IMG/VR virus record: IMGVR_UViG_3300020454_000018
Coordinates: 1 to 53,170 of that record
Direction: 5' to 3' (one strand)
DNA: 53,170 nucleotides
DNA from: a virus
Taxonomy: Duplodnaviria; Caudoviricetes
Below, in pieces: positions 3,550 through 53,170 of the stretch. The notes under the pieces are model-generated. The model was given only the letters and a program-made list of their open reading frames with translations. It had not been told where the DNA came from and searched no databases. A program made the position numbers and the translations under genes. The number at the start of each line of letters is the position of its first letter. Position 1 is the first letter of the stretch.

Positions 3550-3759
3550 ATGAAAGTAAAAATAAACGATAAAATAACTTGGAAAGATAAATATGGTAGA
3601 ATACTACCAGGAATAGTAACAAGTATTGGTAAATATGATGCTATGCCTGATCTTGATTTAAATGGATGTATTGGTATAAGTGCTCCTACATTCCTACCAA
3701 TCAGTAAAGATTGGAATAACGCAATAATTGACCCTTTCCAAATATTAACAATTGGGTAG
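3550..3759 (+). CDS. hypothetical early protein
   Basis: 69-aa ORF after the early promoter; its stop codon lies inside tRNA-Cys. Confidence 0.6.
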   Translation: MKVKINDKITWKDKYGRILPGIVTSIGKYDAMPDLDLNGCIGISAPTFLPISKDWNNAIIDPFQILTIG

Positions 3760-3824
3760 TTGACCGAGTGGTGAGGTGGTGGATTGCAAATCCATATACG
3801 GGAGTTCGAATCTCTCACTACCCT
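3754..3824 (+). tRNA. tRNA-Cys(GCA)
   Basis: Acceptor GGGTAGT/ACTACCC, anticodon arm GTGGA-TTGCAAA-TCCAT, T-loop GTTCGAATC, U discriminator; no encoded CCA. Confidence 0.95.
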
Positions 3825-3918
3825 CATATTTATTATTAAAGTTAATATTATATTGTACTTTTAGCTCTTAAATAGAGATATGGTATTTTATATTTAAGTT
3901 AATTATATTATAAAGATT

Positions 3919-9351: not shown

Positions 9352-9589
<238 letters not shown>

Positions 9590-9596
9590 CAATATT

Positions 9597-9668
9597 GGCC
9601 CGTTCGTCTAGTGGTTAGGACGCAAGGTTTTCATCCTTGTAACAGGAGTTCGATTCTCCTACGGGCTA
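9597..9668 (+). tRNA. tRNA-Glu(UUC)
   Basis: Acceptor GGCCCGT/ACGGGCT, anticodon arm CAAGG-TTTTCAT-CCTTG, GTTCGATTC. Confidence 0.95.
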
Positions 9669-9675
9669 CAAAACA

Positions 9676-9879
9676 ATGATTTACCCATCATACAAAAGAC
9701 CCATACACTACATTAACAACACACCATATGTTGTTCATGCAATCATACCTATTCATAGAATAAAGGATGTAAGATTAGTAAAAGAGTGGTTAGGATGTGA
9801 TACTGCATTTAAATTAGCAAGAGAGGGAAATTATTGGTTTTGTGTAGAAATCGAAGAAGCAAATTGGGAATATGTTTAA
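9676..9879 (+). CDS. hypothetical protein
   Basis: 67-aa ORF overlapping the next start. Confidence 0.6.
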   Translation: MIYPSYKRPIHYINNTPYVVHAIIPIHRIKDVRLVKEWLGCDTAFKLAREGNYWFCVEIEEANWEYV

Positions 9880-10390
9880 AGAAAAAATTATATTAAATAA
9901 TGATGAATGTGAATACATTATTAGTTTGTGTGATACATTTAACCCATCTATGATATTTGATTATAAAACAAATACAGGACAAATTAACGAACACTCAAGA
10001 GTATCAGAAGAAGCATACTTTACTGATTTAGAAAAAGTAAAATCTATTATTTTACCTAAATTAAAAGAGTATAATATAAAAAACTTACCCGATAAAACAA
10101 AAGTTTTAAAATACACAAAGGGTAGTTATTTTAAAAAACATAGAGATAGAGGTAGGGGGTTGGAACATAGAAAACTAACCCTTATCATACAATTAACAAA
10201 TAGTGTAAAGTACGATGGAGCTGAGTTATATGTTGATAATAAATTAACATCAAAAGCAATTGGAAACCTAATACTATTTGATTCGGGTAAATTACATGAA
10301 GTTACTGAACTCACAAAGGGTGAACGATTTGTTTTAGTTAGTTGGATTACTACAGAAGATATGATGATAAATAAAAAAACTTTAGTTTAA
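9872..10390 (+). CDS. 2OG-Fe(II) oxygenase (prolyl-hydroxylase-like)
   Basis: HRD...RKLTLIIQL...YDGAEL...LHEV...GERFVLVSW. Confidence 0.9.
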   Translation: MFKEKIILNNDECEYIISLCDTFNPSMIFDYKTNTGQINEHSRVSEEAYFTDLEKVKSIILPKLKEYNIKNLPDKTKVLKYTKGSYFKKHRDRGRGLEHRKLTLIIQLTNSVKYDGAELYVDNKLTSKAIGNLILFDSGKLHEVTELTKGERFVLVSWITTEDMMINKKTLV

Positions 10391-11183: not shown

Positions 11184-12188
11184 ATGGCAAGAAGAAACAA
11201 AAGAAATCGTTCAGCTCTTTCAAAAAGACAAAGACAGCAAAGGGTAAGAAACAGAGGTGCTTCTAACAAATCCTTAAATAATCAAACAACAAATGGTGGG
11301 GAATTTACCTTAGAAGATGGAACTCCATATGTAGGCGATTACCATATTATGCCAGATGGTACACCAATGACTGGGGCTAAACATAAAGGAAGAGGGTTCG
11401 CAGGTTTAAGGCGTAGAAAAAGAAGGAGTAAACTATTAATACCAGTAACTACACCTCCATCTGATACTACAGCTGATACTACACCTCCACCCACAACTAC
11501 ACCAGCTCCAGTAAAACCACCACAGGTTAACAGACCGCCAGTTAGAATACCACCAAGACCACCCAAAGTAGATTTAAGTGGAATTATTACTCAACCATAT
11601 AAACGATTAGAAAACTATGGGAATCAATATCCAGCTACAGATTCATCTGTAAAAGATGCAGCAGGTACAAATATCTCATCCTACTATTTAAGAGGAGGAT
11701 ATGCATCTAGGGTTATGGGTCATATTTCACCAAACAGAGAAGCCATTCAGACACAAAGTTTTCTTAGAAGAGCAGAAGTTAGGAGTGAGCTTAATATAGA
11801 TTTTATTTTACGATTGGATGGAAAATATTACACATCTGCACAACAATCAGCAAAAATCAAAAGCGCAGAAGCTGAAGGAAATACTTACTATATAAACAGT
11901 GTACCTGTTATAAGAATAGATACAGCAAGAATTAAACCATATGTAGCTAAAGGTTTATTTAAAACAGAAGAGGATTATTCATTCAATCCACCATCAAATC
12001 AAATAGATACTTTAAGTGAAATTTTAGATACTATAGATTGGGTTTGTAGAAAAACAGCTGCCTTAGAACAACCAAGACCATATGGATATAGATATGATGA
12101 TAGAACCGCAGTAGCTGCTAGGCTAGATATGGATGCGGTAATAGCATCAGCAAACAAACCACCAAAAATTAGGTGGAGACAATCATAA
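11184..12188 (+). CDS. Arg/Pro-rich putative virion protein
   Basis: Basic N-terminus MARRNKRNR, a GGEF...YVGDYH...MTGAKH module and a Pro/Thr linker. Confidence 0.6.
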   Translation: MARRNKRNRSALSKRQRQQRVRNRGASNKSLNNQTTNGGEFTLEDGTPYVGDYHIMPDGTPMTGAKHKGRGFAGLRRRKRRSKLLIPVTTPPSDTTADTTPPPTTTPAPVKPPQVNRPPVRIPPRPPKVDLSGIITQPYKRLENYGNQYPATDSSVKDAAGTNISSYYLRGGYASRVMGHISPNREAIQTQSFLRRAEVRSELNIDFILRLDGKYYTSAQQSAKIKSAEAEGNTYYINSVPVIRIDTARIKPYVAKGLFKTEEDYSFNPPSNQIDTLSEILDTIDWVCRKTAALEQPRPYGYRYDDRTAVAARLDMDAVIASANKPPKIRWRQS

Positions 12189-13378: not shown

Positions 13379-13729
13379 ATGGAACTGATACCTATTCACA
13401 ATCTATATTGGAAAAAGTATTTAATGTATGGCTATCATGGATTGATATCTATGTGGATGGATGATTATGGATTGCCTGTTTATAAAGATGTAGTATCTAT
13501 AATACACCAAGCTATGTTATTAAAAAAAGAAGGTGTTACTATTTTAAGATTAGGTAAAGATAAAGTTTGTTTTGTTGATAAATCTGAATACAAATCTGTA
13601 CTAAGAGAATCTATGAAATTTTTCTTAGAAAAAGAAGAGTACTTAGAATGTGCAAAAGTAAGAGATTTATTAGCTGGTAAAATACGACAGAAAAAAAGAA
13701 AAAAAATAATTCAACAAACACTTATATGA
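13379..13729 (+). CDS. protein with UvrB/UvrC (UVR) coiled-coil motif
   Basis: EKEEYLECAKVRDLL. Confidence 0.6.
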   Translation: MELIPIHNLYWKKYLMYGYHGLISMWMDDYGLPVYKDVVSIIHQAMLLKKEGVTILRLGKDKVCFVDKSEYKSVLRESMKFFLEKEEYLECAKVRDLLAGKIRQKKRKKIIQQTLI

Positions 13730-14079
13730 AACAATGGTCTATGTTTATAGGTAGATGGCAACCTTGGCATGAGGGGCATCTATGGTTAATCAATCAACGA
13801 TTAAAAGAAGGTAAATATGTTTGGGTTGCAATTAGAGATGTAAAAAAAACAGATAATCAACCTTGGTCATCATTTGAAGTTTTACAAAATTTACAAAAAG
13901 AATTAAAACCATTAATAGAAGATGGTAAAGTTATGGTTTCAATAATACCCGATATCGAGTCTGTAAACTACGGAAGAGGAGTTGGATATGATATTATAGA
14001 GCACGAACCACCAAAAGATATTAAAGAAATATCAGCAACAAATATCAGAAAACAATTGCGTGAAGAGGGAAAATTATAA
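13726..14079 (+). CDS. cytidylyltransferase-like nucleotidyltransferase
   Basis: FIGRWQPWHEGH (HxGH) and ISATNIR. Confidence 0.85.
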   Translation: MKQWSMFIGRWQPWHEGHLWLINQRLKEGKYVWVAIRDVKKTDNQPWSSFEVLQNLQKELKPLIEDGKVMVSIIPDIESVNYGRGVGYDIIEHEPPKDIKEISATNIRKQLREEGKL

Positions 14080-14129: not shown

Positions 14130-16460
14130 ATGAAGGGCACTTTTTTTTCAGCAGACTTTCTTGTAGATGAAAGTAACAATCTAAGATTGATGGAGATGAA
14201 TACAGATACGGCCTGTATTACAGATACATTAGATACTTACTTTGATTTAACCGAGTTTATAAACTTATTACAATCAAACAATATTACTACGATTCATGCA
14301 ATCTACAAAAACATACACCTCAACTTTATAGATTGGTTAGAAAATAAAATTAGTACAGATGCTACTTTTATAACAAGCTTCGAAAAAACACAAGAAGCGC
14401 AAGATACTATTTATCCAACTGCTATAGCAGATGCTGATGATAAATTTATTTTAAGATTAGCATATGATGAAAACGCATTATTCGATTCTACATATTGTAA
14501 AATCAGAACTAATGTATTAAGTTTGTTTCAAGAAAATAATGATAAAGATTCTGTACCAGAATTCTTTTTAAGTGGAAGTACGGGAGTTATTAATGAAATG
14601 ACAAGCTCGTTAAATGATAATAATAGATTTCCTGATTTAGTAAGAAAAAAAGTAGCTGATGGTAGTGGATTATCTATTGACTTTATTAAGTTCGATAACT
14701 TAGATGTATCATCATCAAACCAAGTTTGGAGTGATTATATTGCTAGTGAGTTAGATACTTCTGTAGATTATGTTGAAAAGTATCACATATCACCTAACTG
14801 GGATTCTCAAAATAGAGTAGATTCCATAAGACAGTTTGGAATAGTATATGGAAGTAATATTGATTATATAAAATTTGGAAGTTATAAAATCCAAAGTGTT
14901 ATAGAAATGCCAAATGCATTAAGTGGTAGTTCAACCAACAATGTAATTGAAATTGGTAAACAACATTACTTTGAATATACAACTAACTTTATGAGACATA
15001 ATAAGTTGGATGGTATTCTTAGTTCTGAAAAAATTCAAAATATAGATAACTCATTCGCAGAACTACCATCTCTTAGTGTAAACGATGATGTAAAATCATT
15101 CTTTATAAGTGGTTCTCCTGATACTGATGATGTAAACATATTTCACAGTTGGTCAAATGATGGGGTTGATTTCCCAATAGGTTCTGAAGTTACATCATCT
15201 ATTATAGAAGCAATGCAATCTTCTTCATTAGATTATTTTAACATAATAGAAAAAACTTTACCAAACGGAGAAACAATTTATTGTGGTATCAATAAGGTTT
15301 TCTTAATATATGAGTCATCTTCAAATCAGATGATGTTTAGAAGAGCAAATCAAATAACAGCATCAGACCATTATTTTGTTGACCACAGTGGTTCACTAAC
15401 ATCCGTATCTCAATCAGCTTATGTTGTATTAGATTCATCAGACTATTCACTCTTTAGAATTGATGTTGAAACAACGGATACATACTTTGTTAGCGCATCA
15501 AAGCCAGTTATCGTTCACAACGCACCATGCTTTGTTGCTGGTACAATGATTCACACCGAAGATGGTAAAAAGAAAATAGAAGATGTGATAGTTGGTGATA
15601 AAGTAGTAACATACAATCACGATAATGACTCTGCAGAATGGAAAGATGTGTTGGAAGTTATGAGAAAAGATAATGAATATGTTGTTACTTATGTATTTGA
15701 AAATGGAACAAAACTTACTGCTACACCTGACCATCCACTATTTGTAGTAGGAAAGGGATACTCTTCTTATCAACCTATCCAAACAAAAGATGATAGTGGT
15801 TTAGATGTAGAGCAAGTATTGTTAGGTGATGAGGTATTACATATAGATGGATATGGTGTAACCATTGAGGATATAATAGAAGAGGAAGAAAAAGAAACAG
15901 TATATAATCTAAAAAAAGTTGCAGATAATCATAACTTCTACGCAAACGACTTTTTAGCACACAACAGATTTGTACCACCATGTTGTTTTGCAGCTGGTAC
16001 ACAAATCCTATTATCAAATGGTGATACTAAAAATATTGAAGATATAGTTGAGGGAGATGAAGTAATGGGATGGAATGGTGAAATATTAGAAGCTTCATTG
16101 GTAACCGCAACTAACAACAAACATACAGTTGATTCACACTGGGAAGCATGTAAAAAATTAGGTGATGAACCATCATTATATACAATCAATGATACGGGAA
16201 TAGAGTTCACACCAGAACACCCATTCCTTACAAAAGAAGGATGGAAATCATTAGTACCTGATTTATCACAAGAACCATATAAATCAGAATCACCAGCAAA
16301 AGAACTTAAAGTTGGAGACTCTATTAATGTTAATGGATTGTGGGAAGAGATAGCAGAAATAAAAATAGTAAGGTCAAATCCTGATGAAGTAGTTTACAAC
16401 ATTAGTGTTGATAAGATACATTCATATATAGCAAACGGAATAATAGTACATAACAAATAA
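14130..16460 (+). CDS. ATP-grasp-like domain fused to three tandem Hint (intein-like) domains
   Basis: N-terminal DFLVD...LRLMEMNT. Hint1 about 15012-15521 (G at position 1, ends VHN); Hint2 15528-15965 (CFVAGT...TPDHP...AHN); Hint3 15984-16454 (CFAAGT...TPEHP...VHN). Confidence 0.85.
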   Translation: MKGTFFSADFLVDESNNLRLMEMNTDTACITDTLDTYFDLTEFINLLQSNNITTIHAIYKNIHLNFIDWLENKISTDATFITSFEKTQEAQDTIYPTAIADADDKFILRLAYDENALFDSTYCKIRTNVLSLFQENNDKDSVPEFFLSGSTGVINEMTSSLNDNNRFPDLVRKKVADGSGLSIDFIKFDNLDVSSSNQVWSDYIASELDTSVDYVEKYHISPNWDSQNRVDSIRQFGIVYGSNIDYIKFGSYKIQSVIEMPNALSGSSTNNVIEIGKQHYFEYTTNFMRHNKLDGILSSEKIQNIDNSFAELPSLSVNDDVKSFFISGSPDTDDVNIFHSWSNDGVDFPIGSEVTSSIIEAMQSSSLDYFNIIEKTLPNGETIYCGINKVFLIYESSSNQMMFRRANQITASDHYFVDHSGSLTSVSQSAYVVLDSSDYSLFRIDVETTDTYFVSASKPVIVHNAPCFVAGTMIHTEDGKKKIEDVIVGDKVVTYNHDNDSAEWKDVLEVMRKDNEYVVTYVFENGTKLTATPDHPLFVVGKGYSSYQPIQTKDDSGLDVEQVLLGDEVLHIDGYGVTIEDIIEEEEKETVYNLKKVADNHNFYANDFLAHNRFVPPCCFAAGTQILLSNGDTKNIEDIVEGDEVMGWNGEILEASLVTATNNKHTVDSHWEACKKLGDEPSLYTINDTGIEFTPEHPFLTKEGWKSLVPDLSQEPYKSESPAKELKVGDSINVNGLWEEIAEIKIVRSNPDEVVYNISVDKIHSYIANGIIVHNK

Positions 16461-16461
16461 A

Positions 16462-16608
16462 ATGGCAAATACAAATAAACCACCGATATATAAAAAAATA
16501 GCATTTGATATTTCTCAAACAAAACAAGTTTTGAGTTCTGATGAACAAACTAAAGTAACAAACATACTCAATAATTTTATTACCTATTTCAAGGCTAAAC
16601 ATACCTAA
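16462..16608 (+). CDS. small protein (48 aa) directly downstream of the Hint polyprotein gene
   Basis: Manually translated MANTNKPPIYKKIAFDISQTKQVLSSDEQTKVTNILNNFITYFKAKHT; starts 1 nt after the stop. Confidence 0.65.
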   Translation: MANTNKPPIYKKIAFDISQTKQVLSSDEQTKVTNILNNFITYFKAKHT

Positions 16609-16635: not shown

Positions 16636-17196
16636 ATGGATAAAGAGCAGTTTTATGAAATGCGATTGCATAGAGATAAGTTTGAAGCTCGTAATACCGA
16701 AAGAGATTCATCGTTTTATTTCAAAGTAATAGATAAGAACAACCCACTTCACATTAGGGATAATATATCCCATCTTAAATTCCTTTGTAAATCTATAGAT
16801 AAGAATTTACCCGAATGGAAAGGTAAACCTGTATTAGATATCTGCTTAGAAAGATTAAACACATCATCATTATTTTTATTATTTCATAAAGACTTTAACA
16901 AAGCATTGGGATGGATGTGGGCATCCGAAATGTTTACTTACAATTGGATTGATAGTCTACACAAACTTCCAATAGATAATTCGGTATATGTTGGGGGAGC
17001 TTATATACAAAAAAATCTAAACCCACCACCAAACACTGGATTACAGTTATATTTTCAATTTTTTTCTTATTTTTTACAAAAATATGAAAACTTATTTGGT
17101 TATATGGATAAATGGAACAAACCCTCCATTTACATTTCACATAAATTAGGATGTGAACAATTTAACTTTATAGAGGATTATGGCAGAGAATATTAG
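16636..17196 (+). CDS. GNAT-family acetyltransferase-like protein
   Basis: LGWMW, VYVGGAYIQK and YMDKWNKPS...KLG. Confidence 0.65.
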   Translation: MDKEQFYEMRLHRDKFEARNTERDSSFYFKVIDKNNPLHIRDNISHLKFLCKSIDKNLPEWKGKPVLDICLERLNTSSLFLLFHKDFNKALGWMWASEMFTYNWIDSLHKLPIDNSVYVGGAYIQKNLNPPPNTGLQLYFQFFSYFLQKYENLFGYMDKWNKPSIYISHKLGCEQFNFIEDYGREY

Positions 17197-18347: not shown

Positions 18348-18861
18348 GAGTGATAATATTAATCCAAAAACTAAAAATTTGAATAAAAAAATACTTTATA
18401 TAGATATGGATGGTGTGTTGGTTGATTTCAACAAAGCTATCACTAAATTCTTAGATACACATCCACATCTAAAAGATAAGTTTAAAGATTGTCCTGACCA
18501 CATACCAGGTATCTTTAGAAACCCACCTCCTATAGATGGGGCTATTGATGCTATTAACAAATTACACAATAGTGGTAAGTATGATATGTTCATAGCTACC
18601 TCAGCACCTTGGGGTAACCCACAATCACTTACTGATAAAAGATATTGGATAGAGGATTACTTTCCTCATATATTCCACAAAAAAATTGTTACCACTCACA
18701 CCAAAGGGCACTTAATGGGTGATTACCTAATCGATGATAGATTGAAGAATGGTGCTGGTGATTTCAAAGGTAAACTTTTAAGATTCGGATTGGATTGGGA
18801 AAATGATAACAAACCAAATGAGTTTCCTGATTGGGATAGTATATTAGATTACTTACTATGA
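18346..18861 (+). CDS. 5'(3')-deoxyribonucleotidase (HAD superfamily)
   Basis: YIDMDGV, ATSAPW, GDYLIDDR. Confidence 0.9.
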   Translation: MSDNINPKTKNLNKKILYIDMDGVLVDFNKAITKFLDTHPHLKDKFKDCPDHIPGIFRNPPPIDGAIDAINKLHNSGKYDMFIATSAPWGNPQSLTDKRYWIEDYFPHIFHKKIVTTHTKGHLMGDYLIDDRLKNGAGDFKGKLLRFGLDWENDNKPNEFPDWDSILDYLL

Positions 18862-19556
18862 TAAACAACTTATTTCCTACACCGATTTATAGTAATACCA
18901 TAGATTCAGATACTCTAAAAAAGTTACAAACTGATATCAATGATTATATTAAAAATAATCGAAATGAATTTAATTTAAAAGCTTGGAATTGTAATACAGA
19001 AACAAATATATTATGCGAAGAAGAGAAATCTTTTTTTCCAAAATATTTAAAAGATTTAATAATACAAAATACTGTATCTTACTTTTCTCAAGCTGGGTTT
19101 AAACTTTCACCTTTTTTTATAAGTGGTTGTTGGTTAACGCTTGGTGGAAAAGGAGCGTTTCAAGACTTGCATGACCATTTAGATTCTACTACCCAAAGAG
19201 ATGTATTTTCGGGTGTGATGTATATATCAATTGATGAAAATAGCGGTGGTGAGTTTATCATACAATCACCAATAGATACCTTAGTAAATCTATTACCACA
19301 TTCAGGAATCGAAAGTAAATCTGAAAGACCCGAATATAATAAATCAAATACAGCAAAGTATAAACCACGAATTTTAATGAACGCAAAAGAAGGAATGTTT
19401 ATATCTTTTCCATCTTGGTTAAAACATGGTAGTTTAGATTATAGGTCAGATAAGAAAAAAAGAATATCAATAAGTTGGAACATAACACTTTTAGATAACA
19501 TAACCTTTGATTCAACAAACGCATTACTAACAAACCCAACCAATCAAATGATATGA
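18858..19556 (+). CDS. putative 2OG-Fe(II) oxygenase
   Basis: LFPTPIY, HDH, FSGVMY, FPSWLKH and RISISWN. Confidence 0.85.
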   Translation: MINNLFPTPIYSNTIDSDTLKKLQTDINDYIKNNRNEFNLKAWNCNTETNILCEEEKSFFPKYLKDLIIQNTVSYFSQAGFKLSPFFISGCWLTLGGKGAFQDLHDHLDSTTQRDVFSGVMYISIDENSGGEFIIQSPIDTLVNLLPHSGIESKSERPEYNKSNTAKYKPRILMNAKEGMFISFPSWLKHGSLDYRSDKKKRISISWNITLLDNITFDSTNALLTNPTNQMI

Positions 19557-47314: not shown

Positions 47315-50300
47315 ATGGCACGAAGAAGAAGAAGAGGTAAGTTCGGTGGACCAAAGAATACTAGGCCACCTTCTAGGAGAAAAAAAACTCCTAGTAGAAC
47401 TAGAAGAGTGCTTAGAAGTGTAAAACGAAGAAGTCGTGTAATACCACCAAAACCAAAGCCAGTTGTTCTTAAAAAAAGAAATGTAAAAGTAGTAAGAACT
47501 GTACCAACTCCACAACCACCAAGAAGTAGGAGACCAAGAGTTAGTACTCCAAGACCTGCAATAAGAATAACACCACCAACACCACCTGTAATAAAAAGTA
47601 GACCGGCTGCTATTGCTAAACCGAGAAGAGCACCAGCACCACCACCTCCACCTCCAAGAACAAAAAGAAGTAGAGGATTTACTGATGTAGTGAAAGTTCC
47701 ACCACCACCACGTCCAACACCAATAATGCCAAGACCTCGTACAAGTCCAAGTAGGATTGACCCAAATACTATTTCTGATGTAGATAATTACCTACAGAGT
47801 ATGAGAGATAGAGGATTTGCTATGGGTAGTAGTATTAATCTTTCACCTATCGGATTAAGTAGTACTCAAGCTGGTTCTCGTTTACAAGGAGAAGGCGGTG
47901 GCTTTAGAGGAATACCAACAGATAGAAGATTTGATGATGAACTATTAGTACCATTTGATACATCATCACTTGTACTACCAACTCCAGGTCCACCTCCACC
48001 ACCAAGACCTACACCACCAAGACCAACACCAATTTTAGATGGGCCAGAACCTCGTCCAACTGTACAAGATTTACCTATCAAATCAGTTACAGTTAATGTT
48101 ACATCAACACCGAGTGGAGCTGAGGTATTAGTAAATGGTGTAAAACAGAATATTAAAAATACACCATCTGTTTTAACTCTTACTACTAAGCAACTTATTG
48201 GAACTACAAAAACACTTACAGTAAGAAGAAACGGATATAGAAGTAATGAATCTTACAGTGTTACTGGAAGAATAGAAACTGTAGTAACTACTAAAAGTAG
48301 ACAAGTACCAATTCTTGATGATTATGTAGCACCATCATTTATTCAAGGTGGTTTAGCTAACATCAATTATTTGGAATCTCAAGGAAGGTCAATGTCATTT
48401 GCATCAAATCAAATGATGCAATCGATTGGTGGGCCAAGAGGACAGTTTGAGCAAATGATGATTCAAAACGAAAGAGCTCGAGCTAATCGTGAACCAAGAT
48501 TCAGAACTGAAAAATACGAAGAAACAAAAAAAGAATTTAGGTTTGATGTAAACAAAAAAGTAGATGGTAAAATAGTAGGTTCAGCATCTGACCAATCGGT
48601 ACAAGACTTATTTCAAACTTGTCACTTTGATTTAGTAAAAAATTCGACAGGAGGAGGACCTGTAATTCCTGATTTACCAGATGATACAGATACTACAAGA
48701 GATGATGGACCAGCAACAATATCAGTACCTGAATTATTAGTTTTAACAGGCGATAGAGATAATCCTGATGGTTCAGAATTAACTCAGCATTATTCTGCGG
48801 TGGTAAATGGAAATGATGTAAAGAGAATAAATTCAAACACATTTAAAGGTAGAGCAGGTTCACCATTTAGTGTAACACTACAAGCTACAGATAGAAGTAA
48901 TATGAAGATTAAATATTTTCACGTTGCTAAAGGAAGTATTGTAGATGAAGATTTTAAAGGATTCGAAAGCGTTCCAGCTGAAGAACTAACAATAGATGTA
49001 GAAAAACCTATTACAGTTGTAATTTATTTTGAAAAGGTAACACCTATATCAGTACCATCAGTAATAATAACCCCAACACAATTCAGATACAATATAGCTG
49101 AACCAATTGGATTATCACTGGGATATGATTCGACTAATTGTGATTATGTTGAAATGAAACTTAACAAAACCACATTAAAAGAAGAAGATGAGGATGGGGC
49201 ATTTTTAATTAGTAATAAAATGTTCAACTCAGGCGTAGGACAGTATATTGGTTATGTTTGCCCTTACAATAAAGGATATGGACAAGGTACACCACAAAAA
49301 TTTGTAATTAATGTTGTAAATCAAGTAGCAGTTAAAACACCTGATATTGTAGATATAGCATATCCTGAAATATTAAAAGGTGCTGACTTTAAAGGATATG
49401 ATGTTGATTTTTCCATCTCATATCAATCAGTAAATACAAACTTTGTAAAGATTTATTTAGGTGATAAGAGTAAACCATATGGAAAATTTGCACCTAACCA
49501 AGCAGTTGATTTTAATGTTTTAAATGTTATAAAAAAATTAAGTGATAAGGTAAATGAAGATGAAGATGAAATAAAATTTGATATACTATTACAACCTCAT
49601 AATACATCAACATCAAAAGAAGTTATTGGTAAATTAGAAACTATTTCAATTACATTTATGAAATCTAATCTTGATTTACCGAGAGAAGATATTGTAAATC
49701 AGCTATGTGATGCATTTGAATTGGATTTAAATCTATTTGATGATGAAACATCAAAATATCTAACACACTTAGCACATTTTGGTGATGGAGAAAATAAACT
49801 TATTGCTAACTGGGAAAAGGATGATGTAACATTTAGAAACTTTAAATATGATTCATTAAGAGAAAAATTTATACCTGAATATGTTAAAGGTGGATTTAAT
49901 GCATTGGTTCTAAAAATGTACGAACCACTTGGTAAAGAAATACAACCAAACCAAGAATTATTCATTTCAAAAATTATTACACAACCAATCATAGATGAAA
50001 TATCAATAGTTGATGATTCAGAAGAATATTGTGTAGCACTAAAAGGACCGAACTTCGGTTTAAATGATTGTGGTTCACCAGCTGATACTGGGTTTGAACT
50101 TATAGATGAATTAGTAGGTAGTGGTTCTCAATCATCAGCTAAACTAATAGATACATTTGTTTCATCAAGTGGTATTGATACAAAAAAATTAGATATAGAA
50201 TATGTTTCATCTTCCTTTGATTTCATAGAAACGGAATATGGATACTCAGTAGATGGTACTATAAACGAACAATATAGATTTGATAACTTTGCCCACTTTG

Positions 50301-53170
50301 GTTCTGCTGAAGAAAGAGCTAGAAATTACTTTTATAAAGTATCCTTATTAGAAACTTATAAAAATGGTATAGCTACAATAGAAAGTGGTAGTGGTTCATC
50401 TACTGGTTCGTTATCTTTACTTAGAGAAAAAGAATCTCTTCAAAAGAAAATAAACGATGTAAAAGCTAACTTTGATGGGTTTGAACATTTCTTAACAGAT
50501 TCAACATCATCTTTAGCATTCCCTAAAGAATCAGATGGGTATTCACTTCAATCAACTGGTAGTACTGATTCGGTAGCTTGGTATAACACTTTATTAGTAT
50601 CATCATCAGATTATGATAGAAACAATACTGATTATCTTGCCAATAATATACCTGCTTATGTAAAAAATGATGAAGAGCAAACTGACTTCATAATGTTCTT
50701 AGATATGTTGGGTCATCACTTTGATATTCTTTGGTCTTATATCAGAGCATTGAAGAAGAATATAAAGGTTGAAGAAAAACAAAGAGTTGGTATAAGTGAT
50801 GATATGTTAAAGCATATTCTTAAAAACTATAGTTGGATTCCACACTCTTCCCAATCAACAAAAAAATTATGGGAGTATGTTTTAGGATACAGAGATTCTA
50901 AACAAACATCAAAACTTATAAAAAGTGGTAAAGAGTATGAAAATACAATATGGAGAAGAATATTAAATAATCTACCATATCTACTAAAACACAAAGGTAC
51001 TCGTAGAGGTTTAAGTGCAGTTTTATCAACCTATGGTATTCCATCATCACTACTAACTATTATGGAGTTTGGAGGACCAAGACAAACAGATTCACAAACT
51101 TCTACATTTACATTTGATGATAGAACATCTGCAGTTGTAATGCCAAATGATGAACAAAATTCTAAAATCTTAGTAGACTGGAAATTAGAAAATGGTGTAT
51201 CATCATCACATGCAGTTGAGGTTAGATTTAAAACAGATGAAACACATACTCAACCTATTATAAAAAATGAACCATATTGGAATGTATCGTTAGAATACCT
51301 ACATGGTAATATGGGTAGATTAAACTTTTCTTCATCGTTTGGAGATATTACGACAGAATCTGGTTCATTATTCAACAATGAATTTACACAATTAGTTGTA
51401 AATGTTAATCATCACAATGCTGGTGAAGCTGGCGCATCGGAATCTATTGAATTAGTTGCTATGCAAGATTTTCAAAGTAGAATTAGAATGCAACTAAGTT
51501 CTTCAACAGAATTTACATCATCAATAAACGAATTCTTTAGTGGTTCACAATTATCTGTTGGTGAAGGGTTTACTGGTTCATTGGATGAATTTAGAATTTG
51601 GAGTTCCTCACTTTCATCATCAGTAATATCAGACCATACTTTATTTCCTGAAAAAGTAAGTGGTAATCATATATCATCATCTACAGAAGATTTGATGTTA
51701 AGATTAGATTTTGAAAAACCAAAAAATCTTAATGTATCTCAATCAATACCAAATGTTGCACCAGATACAGGTTCAAATGGGTTAATTAAATATGCTAGTG
51801 CAGCTAGTGCTAGTGGATTTAGTACTAATACATCATACCCATACCACTATGAAGTATATGATAGAACAGTAACTGCTAAAGTTCCAGCTATGGGATTCGG
51901 ACCAGCTGATAAGTTTAGATTTGAATCAGCATCGTTAGTACAGAATCTATCATATAGACAAAGAGCTACAAAGAAAGCATTTGATACTGCGCCATTGGAT
52001 TCAAATCAATTAGGTATATTCTTATCACCTACAAAAGAATTAAATATGGATATCATCAAATCATTACCTGATTTTATAATTGATGATTATATAGGAGAAG
52101 CTGGTCACCAATATAAGGATGATTATCCTGATTTACTTGGTTTGAGAAAGTATGTATTTGGTAGATATAATCTTAACATATATGAGTATATTAATATTAT
52201 CAAATATATAGATAAATCATTGTTCGAAACAGTTAAACAAATGATACCTGCTAGGGTTAAGGTACTTGATGGTTTATTAATAGAACCACATTTCTTAGAA
52301 AGAAACAAAGAAGTAAGAAGAGAACCACAAGCAGAATTGATGGAATCTAAAGAAGGTGTAGAAGATATATCTAAAAACTCTGTTATAGATATTACATCTT
52401 CAGTTGAACATAAAGAAGGAAATTTAGATTTATCTAATCTGATAAGTATAGAAGAAACTCTTCCATCATTTGAAGGAGCAATAAGTGAAAGTAAATTAGA
52501 AGAAGTAAATGCTGATTTTAATAATTATAATACAACTATTGATGATACTAATATTACTGAAATATCAAGTAGTAGATTAGATTATGAAGTATTAATTGAT
52601 GATGCAGCACCATCTCAATCTTTAATTTCTGAAATTGATTTTAATAATAGTGAAATTGTAGGATTAGACCCAGATGGATTATCAAAAGCTGGATTTGGTA
52701 TTGGACCAGCAACAAATGGTTTCATTCTTAGAACTACAAGAGATAATTTTAATAATTACAAAAAAGAAAAACTTAGAGTTTGGGTTGTTAAAAAAGAAAA
52801 GAAATTTAAACAAAAAGTACAATTAAATCCATTGGATAGTTCATTGGGTACAATTGTATCAGAATCAGCGGTAAGAACAAAAACAATAATATCATTTACT
52901 TCACCATCTGGTTCATTAGCAAATTCAATTGGTCAAGTTGATAATGATGGAACTATAGTACAAGTAACCCCATTAGAAGGTTATTTACCAACACACAATA
53001 GAAATACATCTGATTTGACAACAGGTATGGAAAATTTATACTTTAGAGGTTGTAAACAAACACAAGCTACAACCTTAGATGGAACACCTCCAATAGAGGT
53101 ATTTACTACTAATCCTAACACTCTAAAAGTATCAGATAGTGGTAGAGGAAGTGGTGAACCGATATTAGAG
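47315..53170 (+). CDS. very large baseplate wedge/tail protein (at least 1952 aa, truncated by window end)
   Basis: Absent from the track, consistent with no in-window stop; frame checked at start, middle and end. Arg/Pro-rich N-terminus, PEGA-like VTSTPSGAEVLVNG (about 48090), IWRRILNNLPYLLKHKGT (gp7/gpI-like, about 50950) and LamG-like FTGSLDEFRIW (about 51570). Confidence 0.85.
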   Translation, partial: MARRRRRGKFGGPKNTRPPSRRKKTPSRTRRVLRSVKRRSRVIPPKPKPVVLKKRNVKVVRTVPTPQPPRSRRPRVSTPRPAIRITPPTPPVIKSRPAAIAKPRRAPAPPPPPPRTKRSRGFTDVVKVPPPPRPTPIMPRPRTSPSRIDPNTISDVDNYLQSMRDRGFAMGSSINLSPIGLSSTQAGSRLQGEGGGFRGIPTDRRFDDELLVPFDTSSLVLPTPGPPPPPRPTPPRPTPILDGPEPRPTVQDLPIKSVTVNVTSTPSGAEVLVNGVKQNIKNTPSVLTLTTKQLIGTTKTLTVRRNGYRSNESYSVTGRIETVVTTKSRQVPILDDYVAPSFIQGGLANINYLESQGRSMSFASNQMMQSIGGPRGQFEQMMIQNERARANREPRFRTEKYEETKKEFRFDVNKKVDGKIVGSASDQSVQDLFQTCHFDLVKNSTGGGPVIPDLPDDTDTTRDDGPATISVPELLVLTGDRDNPDGSELTQHYSAVVNGNDVKRINSNTFKGRAGSPFSVTLQATDRSNMKIKYFHVAKGSIVDEDFKGFESVPAEELTIDVEKPITVVIYFEKVTPISVPSVIITPTQFRYNIAEPIGLSLGYDSTNCDYVEMKLNKTTLKEEDEDGAFLISNKMFNSGVGQYIGYVCPYNKGYGQGTPQKFVINVVNQVAVKTPDIVDIAYPEILKGADFKGYDVDFSISYQSVNTNFVKIYLGDKSKPYGKFAPNQAVDFNVLNVIKKLSDKVNEDEDEIKFDILLQPHNTSTSKEVIGKLETISITFMKSNLDLPREDIVNQLCDAFELDLNLFDDETSKYLTHLAHFGDGENKLIANWEKDDVTFRNFKYDSLREKFIPEYVKGGFNALVLKMYEPLGKEIQPNQELFISKIITQPIIDEISIVDDSEEYCVALKGPNFGLNDCGSPADTGFELIDELVGSGSQSSAKLIDTFVSSSGIDTKKLDIEYVSSSFDFIETEYGYSVDGTINEQYRFDNFAHFGSAEERARNYFYKVSLLETYKNGIATIESGSGSSTGSLSLLREKESLQKKINDVKANFDGFEHFLTDSTSSLAFPKESDGYSLQSTGSTDSVAWYNTLLVSSSDYDRNNTDYLANNIPAYVKNDEEQTDFIMFLDMLGHHFDILWSYIRALKKNIKVEEKQRVGISDDMLKHILKNYSWIPHSSQSTKKLWEYVLGYRDSKQTSKLIKSGKEYENTIWRRILNNLPYLLKHKGTRRGLSAVLSTYGIPSSLLTIMEFGGPRQTDSQTSTFTFDDRTSAVVMPNDEQNSKILVDWKLENGVSSSHAVEVRFKTDETHTQPIIKNEPYWNVSLEYLHGNMGRLNFSSSFGDITTESGSLFNNEFTQLVVNVNHHNAGEAGASESIELVAMQDFQSRIRMQLSSSTEFTSSINEFFSGSQLSVGEGFTGSLDEFRIWSSSLSSSVISDHTLFPEKVSGNHISSSTEDLMLRLDFEKPKNLNVSQSIPNVAPDTGSNGLIKYASAASASGFSTNTSYPYHYEVYDRTVTAKVPAMGFGPADKFRFESASLVQNLSYRQRATKKAFDTAPLDSNQLGIFLSPTKELNMDIIKSLPDFIIDDYIGEAGHQYKDDYPDLLGLRKYVFGRYNLNIYEYINIIKYIDKSLFETVKQMIPARVKVLDGLLIEPHFLERNKEVRREPQAELMESKEGVEDISKNSVIDITSSVEHKEGNLDLSNLISIEETLPSFEGAISESKLEEVNADFNNYNTTIDDTNITEISSSRLDYEVLIDDAAPSQSLISEIDFNNSEIVGLDPDGLSKAGFGIGPATNGFILRTTRDNFNNYKKEKLRVWVVKKEKKFKQKVQLNPLDSSLGTIVSESAVRTKTIISFTSPSGSLANSIGQVDNDGTIVQVTPLEGYLPTHNRNTSDLTTGMENLYFRGCKQTQATTLDGTPPIEVFTTNPNTLKVSDSGRGSGEPILE

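What the first reader, a model, noticed from the sequence alone, without database searches (positions are those of the whole stretch)
14130..16608. ATP-grasp-like enzyme fused to three tandem Hint domains separated by tiny peptides: a possible self-processing peptide-ligation system
Seen: the architecture is [ATP-grasp-like]-Hint1-HN|AP|C-Hint2-HN|RFVPPC|C-Hint3-HN|K-stop. Hint2 and Hint3 keep Cys1, TxxHP and the terminal HN. Hint1 has Gly at position 1 but keeps HN. The +1 residues are A, R and K, not C/S/T. The N-terminus begins DFLVD...LRLMEMNT, the metal-binding D...ExN motif normally at the end of ATP-grasp folds, which suggests circular permutation. Known: Hint domains lacking a +1 nucleophile (BIL or PT-HINT type) cleave or form thioesters rather than splice. 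Inference: autoprocessing would leave ATP-grasp+Hint1 as a stable product and release AP and RFVPPC as activated thioester peptides. These could be ligated to a target or act as substrates of the fused ligase. A 48-aa ORF follows 1 nt after the stop and a GNAT gene follows that.
Basis: partly seen in the sequence, partly recalled or inferred. Interest (0 to 1): 0.9.

Follow-up and report, generated by a model that had tools for sequence, protein, structure and literature searches.

The report
Phage ligase fused to self-cutting domains
A marine phage gene joins a rearranged ATP-using ligase to three intein-like self-processing domains and is almost always followed by a tiny partner protein, forming a widespread module that I could not find described.

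Summary
ORF 14130-16460 (776 aa) reads N-domain / degenerate Hint1 ending HN / AP / Hint2 (Cys467...HN612) / RFVPPC / Hint3 (Cys619...HN775) / K / stop. The N-domain has no sequence-family match. It folds confidently (pLDDT 93.9) as a circularly permuted ATP-grasp, closest to glutathione and glutathionylspermidine synthetases. D9, E22 and N24 are each kept in at least 90% of 127 relatives. Hint2 and Hint3 are type-A BIL-like; their nearest solved relative is Tetrahymena BIL2.

The family is large and found almost only on phage contigs. It carries 0-3 canonical Hints after Hint1, and the number follows clades. Of 415 canonical Hints, 414 keep Cys1 and 403 keep HN. The +1 residue is K or R in 382 of those 403.

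The 48-aa ORF downstream is present in 77 (plus 2 weak) of 80 loci. It is predicted to clamp the N-domain and Hint1 (ipSAE 0.84, controls 0.00).

Linkers run from 0 to 18 residues, yet all exteins together stay at a median of 7-9 aa whatever the Hint number. Specific AP or RFVPPC products are therefore unlikely. My best reading is a self-processing pro-ligase whose BIL domains excise themselves. No processing step has been shown. The GNAT call is unsupported.

The parts
14130..16460 (+). Whole ORF, 776 aa: permuted ATP-grasp-like N-domain, Hint1, AP, Hint2, RFVPPC, Hint3, K, stop
14130..15008 (+). N-domain, aa 1-293. Circularly permuted ATP-grasp fold. D9, E22, N24, R109, K173 and R234 are each kept in at least 90% of 127 relatives; T25, Y112 and D119 are invariant.
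   Evidence: AF2 model pLDDT 93.9, pTM 0.90. Foldseek and VIA matches to glutathione synthetase, GspS and YgiC. Conservation. ESM Atlas leads to ATP-grasp clusters. No sequence-family match.
15009..15521 (+). Hint1, aa 294-464. Degenerate Hint with Gly295 in place of Cys1 and no TxxH block; ends H463-N464.
   Evidence: hhalign against Hint2 and Hint3, probability 94.5 and 94.6%. HN kept in 277 of 283 Hint1 domains.
15522..15527 (+). Linker A465-P466
   Evidence: AP is the commonest Hint1-to-next-Hint linker, 87 of 196.
15528..15965 (+). Hint2, aa 467-612. Type-A BIL-like: Cys467, T532..H535-P536, H611-N612.
   Evidence: (6y75 / 6tmm E 2e-26; 2lwy E 1.6e-24)
15966..15983 (+). Linker R613-FVPP-C618. 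Starts with the family-wide +1 Arg/Lys and ends with Cys before Cys1.
15984..16454 (+). Hint3, aa 619-775. Type-A BIL-like: Cys619, T694..H697-P698, H774-N775.
16455..16460 (+). One-residue C-extein, Lys776, then the stop codon
   Evidence: After the terminal HN of the last Hint, a lone K is the tail in 29 of 52, 118 of 127 and 2 of 3 proteins, grouped by Hint position.
16462..16608 (+). 48-aa partner protein, starting one base after the stop of the large gene. Y10 is invariant; K11 and F39 are kept in at least 90% of 39 aligned copies. The C-terminus is usually K-x-K-H-x.
   Evidence: Found at position +1 in 75 of 81 loci. Two more were found by HMM and two weak copies were seen. Alignments. 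Complex prediction ipSAE 0.84 against 0.00 for controls.
9872..10390 (+). 2OG-Fe(II) oxygenase (PF13640). In relatives its homologues usually sit 2-4 genes from the family gene; here it lies 3.7 kb upstream.
16636..17196 (+). Not a constant neighbour.
   Evidence: No Pfam, PHROG, NCBIfam or PADLOC match. Homologue within four genes of the family gene in 11 of 81 loci.

Best explanation
This is a phage-specific two-gene module.

Gene 1 encodes a pro-enzyme with two parts. The constant part is a circularly permuted ATP-grasp carboxylate-amine ligase (glutathione-synthetase / glutathionylspermidine-synthetase-like fold) fused to a degenerate Hint domain. That Hint has lost its N-terminal nucleophile but keeps the C-terminal His-Asn. 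The variable part is a short Pro/Lys-rich C-terminal tail interrupted by 0-3 (here two) type-A BIL-like Hint domains.

Gene 2 encodes a protein of about 47 aa that clamps the ligase and Hint1 together, either as a subunit or as a bound substrate.

Proposed mechanism. Steps 1-4 are inferred from the known chemistry of type-A BIL domains; none is shown here.
1. Cys467 and Cys619 form thioesters with the preceding residue.
2. Asn612 and Asn775 cyclise and cut the chain after themselves.
3. The freed amino groups of Arg613 and Lys776 attack the thioesters. Both Hints drop out, and the exteins AP, RFVPPC and K are joined into a nine-residue tail on ligase-Hint1. Alternatively, cleavage without joining simply removes the Hints.
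4. The conserved His463-Asn464 of Hint1 may then cut that tail off.

The working entity would be ligase-Hint1 bound to the small protein. Processing would act as a built-in, single-turnover maturation step. The substrates of the ligase are unknown.
For: Fold:
- The N-domain model has pLDDT 93.9 and pTM 0.90.
- All Foldseek matches at E < 1e-3 are glutathione or homoglutathione synthetases, GspS, YjfC/YgiC or a putative GspS. The best is 6.8e-6 with probability 1.0, but TMq is only 0.37-0.47.
- The VIA wide search puts eleven entries of the same kind on top, with Z 9.8-7.6 over model residues 1-290.
- Classical ATP-grasps (RimK, ArgX, LysX, E. coli GshB, Ddl) align only from model residue about 51, and only to their own first 200-250 residues. 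That is the pattern expected for a permutation.
- D9, E22, N24, R109, K173 and R234 are each kept in at least 90% of 127 sequences whose mean column identity is 16%.

Hints:
- The nearest solved sequences are BIL domains: Tetrahymena BIL2 (E 2e-26) and a bacterial intein-like domain, 2lwy (E 1.6e-24). True mini-inteins score 1e-14 or weaker.
- Of 415 canonical Hints in 327 family proteins, 414 have Cys1, 403 have HN and 397 have TxxH. The +1 residue is K in 268 and R in 114 of the 403, and is never C or S.
- A one-residue C-extein (Lys, then stop) is kept in most members. This makes sense only if the C-terminal reaction is coupled to something, such as ligation of that Lys.

Exteins behave as one tail:
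- Their summed length has a median of 7, 9, 9 and 7 aa for 0, 1, 2 and 3 canonical Hints.
- They are enriched in Pro (8-19%, background 3%) and Lys (13-29%, background 5%).
- They end in K in 9/16, 53/74, 133/138 and 1/3.
- Hint1-only relatives carry uninterrupted Pro/Lys-rich tails of the same kind.

Partner:
- The small ORF is at +1 in 75 of 81 loci. Two more copies were found by HMM and two are weak; one locus is truncated and one has none.
- Complex prediction gives ipSAE 0.84 in 3 of 3 runs against a best of 3 controls of 0.00. That mark was reached by 58 of 80 solved complexes and 2 of 110 mismatched pairs. The runs agree in at least 90% of contacts, and the partner pLDDT is 86-87.
- Contacts fall on both the N-domain and Hint1.

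Literature: type-A BIL chemistry comes from passages of PMC4031507.
Against: - No processing step, ATP use or binding has been measured.
- The N-domain matches no ATP-grasp sequence family. TM-scores are modest, so a catalytically dead or repurposed fold is possible.
- The -1 residue of Hint2 is usually Pro (117 of 414 canonical Hints). From memory, Pro at -1 is unfavourable for the N-S acyl shift in inteins.
- The review read says cleavage products dominate over splicing for type-A BILs, so the joined tail may never form.
- Arg at +1 of internal Hints and Lys at +1 of last Hints could be a requirement of the domain rather than remnants of a tail.
- A few members have long Cys-rich tails, or a last Hint without HN. 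A simple 'short tail' picture does not cover them.
- The full-length model was too poor (pLDDT 72, pTM 0.40) to show whether any tail can reach the ligase site.
- Gene adjacency among related phages may partly reflect inherited synteny.
Confidence: 0.45

Rival explanations
1. BUBL-like conjugation. The thioester formed at Cys467 (and/or Cys619) is not resolved within the same chain. It is captured by a lysine of another protein: the 48-aa partner (K11, kept in at least 90% of copies), a host protein or a virion protein. Ligase-Hint1 or a linker would then become covalently attached by an isopeptide bond, without ATP.
For: The closest solved relative of Hint2 is Tetrahymena BIL2 (6y75 / 6tmm, E 2e-26). 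Its depositors describe it as forming an isopeptide bond to a lysine and conjugating its N-extein to other proteins without ATP (PMC8616854, section 2.4 passages). Lys is the +1 residue of 268 of 403 Hints. The partner's Y10-K11 is predicted to lie on Hint1 residues 433-434.
Against: Internal Hints have Arg, a poor nucleophile, at +1 (114 of 403). No ubiquitin-like extein is present. Relatives with no canonical Hint at all keep the ligase, Hint1 and the partner (L075, L076), so conjugation cannot be the core function of the module. No target is known.
Confidence: 0.2
2. Persistent parasitic or neutral BIL elements. The canonical Hints are mini intein-like insertions in a dispensable-looking tail. 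They are kept only because imprecise loss or failure to excise would harm the ligase, and they have no regulatory or chemical role for the phage.
For: Copy number does vary, from 0 to 3, with at least 8 changes on the tree. The summed exteins look like one short tail. Conservation of catalytic residues is also what is expected of any intein that must still excise.
Against: No homing endonuclease is present; the domains are 146-157 aa. None has a C, S or T nucleophile at +1 except 2 with T. Copy number is clade-structured, with 8 changes against 16-30 for shuffled labels. Internal and last Hints are old, position-specific paralogues, with 10 changes against 19-30 shuffled. They sit at the extreme C-terminus rather than in a conserved motif of the host protein. 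The one-residue Lys C-extein is conserved.
Confidence: 0.15
3. Hint1 cleavage plus the Hint2 and Hint3 thioesters release AP and RFVPPC as activated thioester peptides. These are then ligated to a target or used by the fused ligase.
For: The layout is an upstream Hint able to cut after HN, a peptide, then a downstream Hint with Cys1. That is chemically suited to give a peptide with a free amine and a C-terminal thioester. Some relatives have longer aromatic and Gly-rich linkers that recur within clades, for example a 13-residue linker in 21 clusters.
Against: Many linkers are absent or a single residue. Hint1 is followed directly by Cys in 44 of 277. Linkers such as R, RA, KA and K occur between canonical Hints. 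Sequences are not conserved across clades. Total extein length does not grow with the number of Hints.
Confidence: 0.1
4. The N-domain is not an enzyme. The protein is a structural or injected phage protein that uses Hint autoproteolysis for maturation, as proposed for other Hint-bearing phage proteins.
For: PHROG matches of the Hint part include families annotated as virion structural protein and head protein (phrog_38766 at 1.9e-5, phrog_15127 at 1.4e-3). A baseplate gene lies later in the window.
Against: Those PHROG matches cover only the Hint domains. The gene sits among metabolic-type genes (cytidylyltransferase-like, PhoH, 2OG oxygenases), not in the structural block. Acidic, amide and basic residues at ATP-grasp-like positions are kept in at least 90% of 127 relatives.
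Confidence: 0.05

Closest known systems
Type-A bacterial intein-like (BIL) domains, e.g. PDB 2lwy
   Same: Hint fold, Cys1, block-B TxxH, C-terminal His-Asn and no Cys/Ser/Thr at +1. The sequence match is E 1.6e-24. The expected chemistry is a thioester plus Asn cyclisation, with splicing by aminolysis or plain cleavage (PMC4031507 passages).
   Different: Here up to three stand in tandem, behind a degenerate fourth, at the very C-terminus of an enzyme. They are separated by 0-18 residues, have a near-universal Arg/Lys at +1 and often a single Lys as the whole C-extein. The family is found on phage contigs, not bacterial genomes.
Tetrahymena BUBL locus, BIL2 domain (PDB 6y75 / 6tmm)
   Same: Best solved sequence match to Hint2 (E 2e-26). 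The BIL domain belongs to a polyubiquitin locus and is flanked by two ubiquitin-like domains. Lysine is involved in resolving the thioester (PMC8616854 section 2.4).
   Different: The exteins there are ubiquitin-like domains. Here they are an ATP-grasp-Hint1 unit and peptides of a few residues. No Ubl domain is detected.
Circularly permuted ATP-grasp ligases: eukaryotic glutathione synthetase, glutathionylspermidine synthetase, YgiC/YjfC, CP_ATPgrasp families
   Same: Best structural matches over the whole N-domain. The Mg-binding-type D...ExN hairpin lies at the N-terminal end of the aligned region. These are carboxylate-amine ligases.
   Different: There is no detectable sequence similarity to GSH_synth_ATP, GSP_synth, CP_ATPgrasp_2 or ATP-grasp_4. 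The domain is much smaller (about 293 aa against 370-600). It is fused to Hint domains and paired with a 47-aa protein.
PT-HINT domains of polymorphic toxins
   Same: Pfam PT-HINT matches above cut-off (46.2 bits against 27.7). The layout is a conserved N-terminal part, a Hint, then a variable C-terminal end. A few relatives carry Cys-rich tails of 23-70+ aa after Hint1.
   Different: No toxin domain follows the Hints; the ORF ends with one Lys. There is no secretion-related N-terminal region.
ATP-grasp ligases that work on a small bound protein or peptide (LysX/ArgX with LysW; RimK; graspetide ligases such as MdnC)
   Same: ATP-grasp fold (Z 4-6) encoded beside a small protein that is predicted to bind it.
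   Different: These are weaker structural matches than the GSS/GspS group. The partner here has no acidic C-terminal tail, ends K-x-K-H-x, and also contacts Hint1. Whether it is a substrate is unknown.

Membership tests
ATP-grasp superfamily (circularly permuted GSS / GspS-like branch) | ATP-grasp three-dimensional fold | tested here: met
   The model has pLDDT 93.9. Foldseek gives probability 1.0 and E 7e-6 to 6e-4 for GSS, GspS and YgiC. VIA gives Z 9.8-7.6 over residues 1-290 for eleven such entries. TMq is only 0.37-0.47.
ATP-grasp superfamily (circularly permuted GSS / GspS-like branch) | Mg/ATP-binding acidic-amide triad on a beta-hairpin (D...ExN) | tested here: met
   D9, E22 and N24 lie on strands 2-12 and 18-24. 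Each is kept in at least 90% of 127 sequences. That this spacing equals the Mg ligands of D-Ala-D-Ala ligase is recalled, not tested.
ATP-grasp superfamily (circularly permuted GSS / GspS-like branch) | Permuted order: the Mg hairpin precedes the N- and central domains | tested here: met
   RimK, ArgX, LysX and E. coli GshB align model residues 51-290 to their own residues 1 to about 200-240 only. GSS- and GspS-type chains align from model residue 1.
ATP-grasp superfamily (circularly permuted GSS / GspS-like branch) | Match to a curated sequence model (ATP-grasp_4, CP_ATPgrasp_2, GSP_synth, GSH_synth_ATP, or any Pfam ATP-grasp family) | tested here: not met
   No match at E up to 10. phmmer against PDB sequences finds nothing relevant.
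ATP-grasp superfamily (circularly permuted GSS / GspS-like branch) | ATP-dependent carboxylate-amine ligation | not testable with these tools
   Needs enzyme assays.
Type-A BIL domain (Hint2, Hint3) | Hint-domain sequence match | tested here: met
   Pfam Intein_splicing, Hint_2, PT-HINT, Hint and Vint are all above cut-off. PDB BIL domains score E 2e-26 and 1.6e-24.
Type-A BIL domain (Hint2, Hint3) | N-terminal Cys and block-B TxxH | tested here: met
   C467 with T532/H535, and C619 with T694/H697. Family-wide, 414 of 415 have Cys1 and 397 of 415 have TxxH.
Type-A BIL domain (Hint2, Hint3) | C-terminal His-Asn | tested here: met
   H611-N612 and H774-N775. 403 of 415 family-wide.
Type-A BIL domain (Hint2, Hint3) | No Cys/Ser/Thr nucleophile at +1 | tested here: met
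   R613 and K776. Of 403: K 268, R 114, T 2, no C or S.
Type-A BIL domain (Hint2, Hint3) | Autocleavage or splicing activity | not testable with these tools
   Needs expression and mass spectrometry.
Canonical (class 1) intein | Cys/Ser/Thr at +1 of the C-extein | tested here: not met
   A465, R613 and K776. Family-wide figures.
Canonical (class 1) intein | Insertion inside a conserved site of a host protein; often a homing endonuclease | tested here: not met
   The Hints lie in the C-terminal tail after the conserved part. The domains are 146 and 157 aa, with only marginal terminal matches to homing-endonuclease models (E 0.005 and 0.028 over about 35 residues).
PT-HINT polymorphic toxin | A toxin domain C-terminal to the Hint | tested here: not met
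   The ORF ends one residue after Hint3. No further domain is detected.
BUBL (BIL plus ubiquitin-like repeats) | Ubiquitin-like exteins between BIL domains | tested here: not met
   The exteins are 2, 6 and 1 residues. No Ubl family in Pfam.
   No Pfam family at E up to 10, and no PHROG, NCBIfam or PADLOC match. The fold was not modelled.

The most novel reading that the evidence does not exclude
The module is a viral protein-tagging machine that combines two ligation chemistries in one polypeptide: ATP-independent BIL thioesters and an ATP-grasp acyl-phosphate ligase. The BIL domains hand the ligase-Hint1 unit, or a short Pro/Lys peptide, onto a lysine of the 47-aa partner or of a host protein. 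The ligase, and perhaps the neighbouring 2OG oxygenase, then extends or modifies that adduct. This would amount to a ubiquitin-like conjugation system without E1, E2 or E3 enzymes, encoded by marine phages.
Probability: 0.15. Interest if true: 0.9.

Novelty: new variant of a known kind. Interest (0 to 1): 0.72.

Why it matters
Hint and BIL domains are known as inteins, as toxin-release modules and as the hedgehog and BUBL processing domains. ATP-grasp ligases are known as peptide and metabolite ligases. I found no description of a fusion of the two. The full-text searches for 'Hint domain' + 'ATP-grasp' + 'phage' and 'Hint domain' + 'cyanophage' returned only unrelated papers.

The family is not rare:
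- 455 clusters at 90% identity and 231 representatives at 50% identity.
- 89 IMG/VR stretches.
- Near-identical DNA in marine metagenomes of about ten studies, once possible source samples are set aside.

It gives intein chemists natural features to work with. These include a tandem BIL array, a conserved one-residue Lys C-extein, a near-universal basic +1 residue, and a Hint that seems to have kept only the Asn-cyclisation half. It gives phage biologists a conserved three-part cassette (ligase-Hint, micro-protein, and often a 2OG oxygenase) whose target in the infected cell is unknown. All parts are small and soluble-looking, so the proposed steps can be tested directly in E. coli.

Tried and rejected
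- **The search for related loci.** The single N-domain found no relative. The 127-row alignment was too diverse to give patterns. The 26-row alignment A2 worked.
- **BFVD fold search** of the N-domain: no match at E <= 0.001.
- **Sequence searches of the N-domain.** Pfam, NCBIfam, PADLOC, PHROGs and PDB phmmer gave nothing relevant.
- **tblastn of the whole protein** against 50,697 GenBank phage records: only Hint-part matches in 6 records.
- **Full-length AlphaFold model.** pLDDT 72 and pTM 0.40, with the N-terminus poorly modelled on the shallow alignment. It was not used for inter-domain geometry.
- **ESM Atlas** for the 48-aa protein: no usable hit.
- **SET-domain impression.** I thought the +2 gene in 21 loci might be a SET-domain methyltransferase. 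Pfam gave no family, so I dropped it.
- **Other neighbours.** The APS kinase (5.2e-16) and the weak, below-cut-off sulfotransferase match in some loci look like general island content rather than part of the module.
- **Cyclic peptide products.** I considered head-to-tail cyclic peptides or an Ala-Pro diketopiperazine made between two Hints. I rejected this as a general function because many relatives have linkers of 0-1 residues.
- **Class-3-intein-like chemistry for Hint1.** No conserved Cys in Hint1.
- **RNA libraries.** Contigs from three metatranscriptome runs of two studies match parts of the gene with no differences. The tool states that this does not show transcription, and uncovered parts mean nothing.
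- **Joints in DNA run X7.** They skip 892-1896 bases between Hint-coding parts but have only 21-42 letters on the short side at 90% likeness. I treated them as cross-matches between repeats or relatives.
- **GTDB species genomes.** One hit only, a 2.8-kb contig binned with a Cyanobium MAG. This is too little to name a host.
- **Tools and files not available.** Supplementary files of papers were not consulted.


Full report
**What is in the sequence.**

The window is a 53-kb fragment of a virus record, with CheckV completeness of about 30%. It has about 30% G+C. It carries PhoH, 2OG oxygenases, a carbamoyltransferase and a baseplate wedge gene, plus three tRNA genes. Its baseplate protein is 37-41% identical to those of a Microcystis phage and Flavobacterium myophages.

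ORF 14130..16460 encodes 776 aa, and a 48-aa ORF starts one base after its stop.

Pfam and NCBIfam recognise two Hint domains, aa 466-612 and 619-775, far above their cut-offs. Pfam finds no family in aa 1-465 above its cut-offs, even at E up to 10.

**Hint1.**

No family model sees residues 294-464. A profile built from relatives nevertheless aligns over its whole length with the Hint2 and Hint3 profiles (probability 94.5% and 94.6%, E about 8e-8). The N-domain control scores 0.2%.

In that alignment Gly295 takes the place of Cys1 and the TxxH block is missing. The block-F-like stretch and the terminal His-Asn remain. HN is kept in 277 of 283 Hint1 domains. Hint1 therefore looks like a Hint that has lost the thioester half of the chemistry and kept the Asn-cyclisation half. 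That reading is an inference.

**The N-domain.**

With an alignment of 127 sequences, AlphaFold2 gives a model with pLDDT 93.9 and pTM 0.90.

- Foldseek against the PDB returns only glutathione or homoglutathione synthetases, glutathionylspermidine synthetase, YjfC/YgiC and a putative GspS at E < 1e-3. The best is 6.8e-6 at probability 1.0, although TMq is only 0.37-0.47.
- The independent VIA search of 48,161 chains puts eleven entries of the same kind on top, with Z 9.8 to 7.6, 194-230 aligned residues and model range 1 to about 290.
- Classical ATP-grasps (RimK, ArgX, LysX, E. coli GshB, Ddl, TTLL, MdnC) follow at Z 4-6. They align only model residues about 51-290 to their own first 200-250 residues.

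That pattern is what a circular permutation predicts. The hairpin carrying D9, E22 and N24, which ends the classical fold, here opens the protein.

D9, E22, N24, R109, K173 and R234 are each kept in at least 90% of sequences, and T25, Y112 and D119 are invariant. This holds in an alignment whose mean column identity is 16%. ESM Atlas features also point to ATP-grasp clusters, at score 0.94, as a lead only.

At the sequence level the domain belongs to no curated ATP-grasp family. That eukaryotic glutathione synthetase is itself a permuted ATP-grasp is recalled knowledge. The Pfam name CP_ATPgrasp_2 shows that such permutations are recognised.

**Hint2 and Hint3.**

A family profile searched against PDB sequences hits the following:
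- Tetrahymena BIL2, 6y75 / 6tmm, E 2e-26.
- A bacterial intein-like domain, 2lwy, E 1.6e-24.
- A protein annotated as containing an intein C-terminal splicing domain, 8w20, E 1.7e-17.
- Mini-inteins only after these, at 1e-14 or weaker.

In 327 non-identical family proteins there are 415 canonical Hints. Of these, 414 have Cys1, 403 have HN and 397 have TxxH by a simple pattern. The +1 residue is K in 268 and R in 114 of the 403, T in 2, and never C or S.

These are the defining features of type-A BIL domains. According to the review passages I read, such domains form the N-terminal thioester, cut at the C-terminus by Asn cyclisation and can splice by aminolysis, with cleavage products dominating (PMC4031507). 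The depositors describe BIL2 as forming a lysine isopeptide and conjugating its N-extein to other proteins without ATP (PMC8616854, section 2.4).

**The family.**

- The word-indexed search found 455 proteins at E <= 0.001 among 2087 candidates of 426-1358 aa.
- The exhaustive search of 50%-identity representatives found 231 at E <= 0.001, of which 90 are at 1e-30 or better. Nearly all of the 150 listed match from their own residue 1.
- IMG/VR holds 89 encoding stretches, of which 80 were fetched, on contigs of up to 326 kb.
- One genome per 185,579 prokaryote species gave a single hit, on a 2.8-kb MAG contig.
- 50,697 GenBank phage records gave only Hint-part hits.

Among 80 complete genes (79 loci plus the window), the total number of Hints including Hint1 is one in 2, two in 37, three in 37 and four in 4.

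On a tree of the N-domain plus Hint1 (59 distinct rows), the number of canonical Hints needs 8 changes, against 16-30 (mean 23.9) for 200 shuffles. On a tree of 87 canonical Hints, 'internal' versus 'last' needs 10 changes against 19-30. Domains lacking a recognisable Cys1 or HN were left out of that tree. The Hints are therefore old, position-specific paralogues and not sporadic insertions.

**Linkers and tails.**

- After Hint1, the linker is AP in 87 of 196, absent in 34, A in 16 and SP in 7. The rest are longer, aromatic and Gly-rich stretches.
- Between canonical Hints, the linker nearly always begins with R or K. It ranges from a single R to 18 residues.
- After the terminal HN of the last Hint there is usually one K and then the stop.
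- Hint1-only proteins end in short Pro/Lys-rich tails or, in about ten cases, in Cys-rich tails of 23-70+ aa.
- Summed over each protein, the exteins have median lengths of 7, 9, 9 and 7 aa for 0, 1, 2 and 3 canonical Hints. They are enriched in Pro and Lys. They end in K in 9/16, 53/74, 133/138 and 1/3 (247 proteins could be parsed, and tails over 30 aa were set aside).

This argues that the exteins are pieces of one short tail rather than separate products. It also argues that the terminal Lys is a participant in the chemistry. Both points are inferences.

**The small ORF.**

A homologue of ORF 16462-16608 lies immediately downstream, on the same strand, in 75 of 81 loci. The gap is mostly -1 to 31 bases. 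An HMM finds it in two more loci (E 2.6e-18 and 1.6e-14) and weakly in the two Hint1-only loci (E 0.005 and 9.5e-5). One locus is cut short and one shows none.

Y10 is invariant, and K11 and F39 are kept in at least 90% of copies.

Folding aa 1-464 with the small protein gave ipSAE 0.84 in 3 of 3 runs, against 0.00 for the best of 3 controls. That mark was reached by 58 of 80 solved complexes and 2 of 110 mismatched pairs. The runs agree in at least 90% of contacts, and the partner pLDDT is 86-87. Because my own alignments were used, those calibration counts hold only roughly. Contacts cover the N-domain (8-20, 30-37, 117-141, 229-258, 278-288) and Hint1 (297-299, 370-384, 407-439). This supports binding but does not show it.

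A 2OG-Fe(II) oxygenase (PF13640) lies within four genes in 63 of 81 loci. Its homologue in the window is at 9872-10390. Shared ancestry of gene order may explain part of this.

**Interpretation.**

I read the locus as a self-processing pro-ligase with a micro-protein partner. The fold, the conserved residues, the BIL character, the conserved cassette and the predicted complex come from tool results. Every chemical step (thioester formation, Asn cyclisation, joining, Hint1 cleavage, ATP use) is inferred.

The main rivals are:
- BUBL-like conjugation to a lysine of another protein.
- Neutral persistence of BIL elements.
- A non-enzymatic structural role.

Near-identical DNA occurs in marine metagenomes of about ten studies once the three possible source samples are set aside. 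Identical pieces also lie in three RNA libraries of two studies, which does not prove transcription.

Noticed in passing
Homologues P0257 and P0262, and about eight other proteins: Some family members have only Hint1, followed after HN by a Cys-rich tail of 23-70+ aa that usually ends in K. These look like small disulfide-rich or metal-binding peptides that Hint1 could release.
   Followed up: partly
L025-L028; also L034 and similar proteins: A subgroup has a last Hint without the terminal HN. It ends instead in a conserved stretch of about 30 residues (...SGLGDNELLN...), reminiscent of type-B BILs, which lack the intein block G.
   Followed up: no
window 9872-10390 and 18858-19556; loci L001-L080: 2OG-Fe(II) oxygenase genes recur near the family gene: a homologue within four genes in 63 of 81 loci. 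The window has two such genes flanking the locus, 3.7 kb upstream and 2.4 kb downstream.
   Followed up: partly
window 11184-12188: A 334-aa ORF with a long Pro/Thr-rich low-complexity stretch and no PHROG match. A homologue was found in only 1 of the 80 related loci.
   Followed up: no
window 3754-3825, 9516-9590, 9597-9669: Three tRNA genes: Cys-GCA, Ala-TGC and Glu-TTC.
   Followed up: no
window 47315-53170: A very long ORF (at least 1952 aa) runs off the 3' end of the window, downstream of the baseplate wedge gene. It may be a structural protein such as a tail fibre.
   Followed up: no
L006:10499-10927 and 20 other loci, position +2: A conserved ORF of about 145 aa follows the small partner gene in 21 loci. 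It looked SET-domain-like by eye, but Pfam gave no family.
   Followed up: partly
P0237, P0264: Two database proteins join an unrelated N-terminal part to a fragment of the N-domain. In one, that part looked by eye like an aspartyl-tRNA synthetase. These are probably chimeric or mis-called metagenome genes rather than real fusions.
   Followed up: no
window 13726-14079: The gene just upstream is a short (117 aa) cytidylyltransferase-like protein (Pfam 2.6e-5). A homologue lies within four genes upstream in 15 of 81 loci.
   Followed up: no
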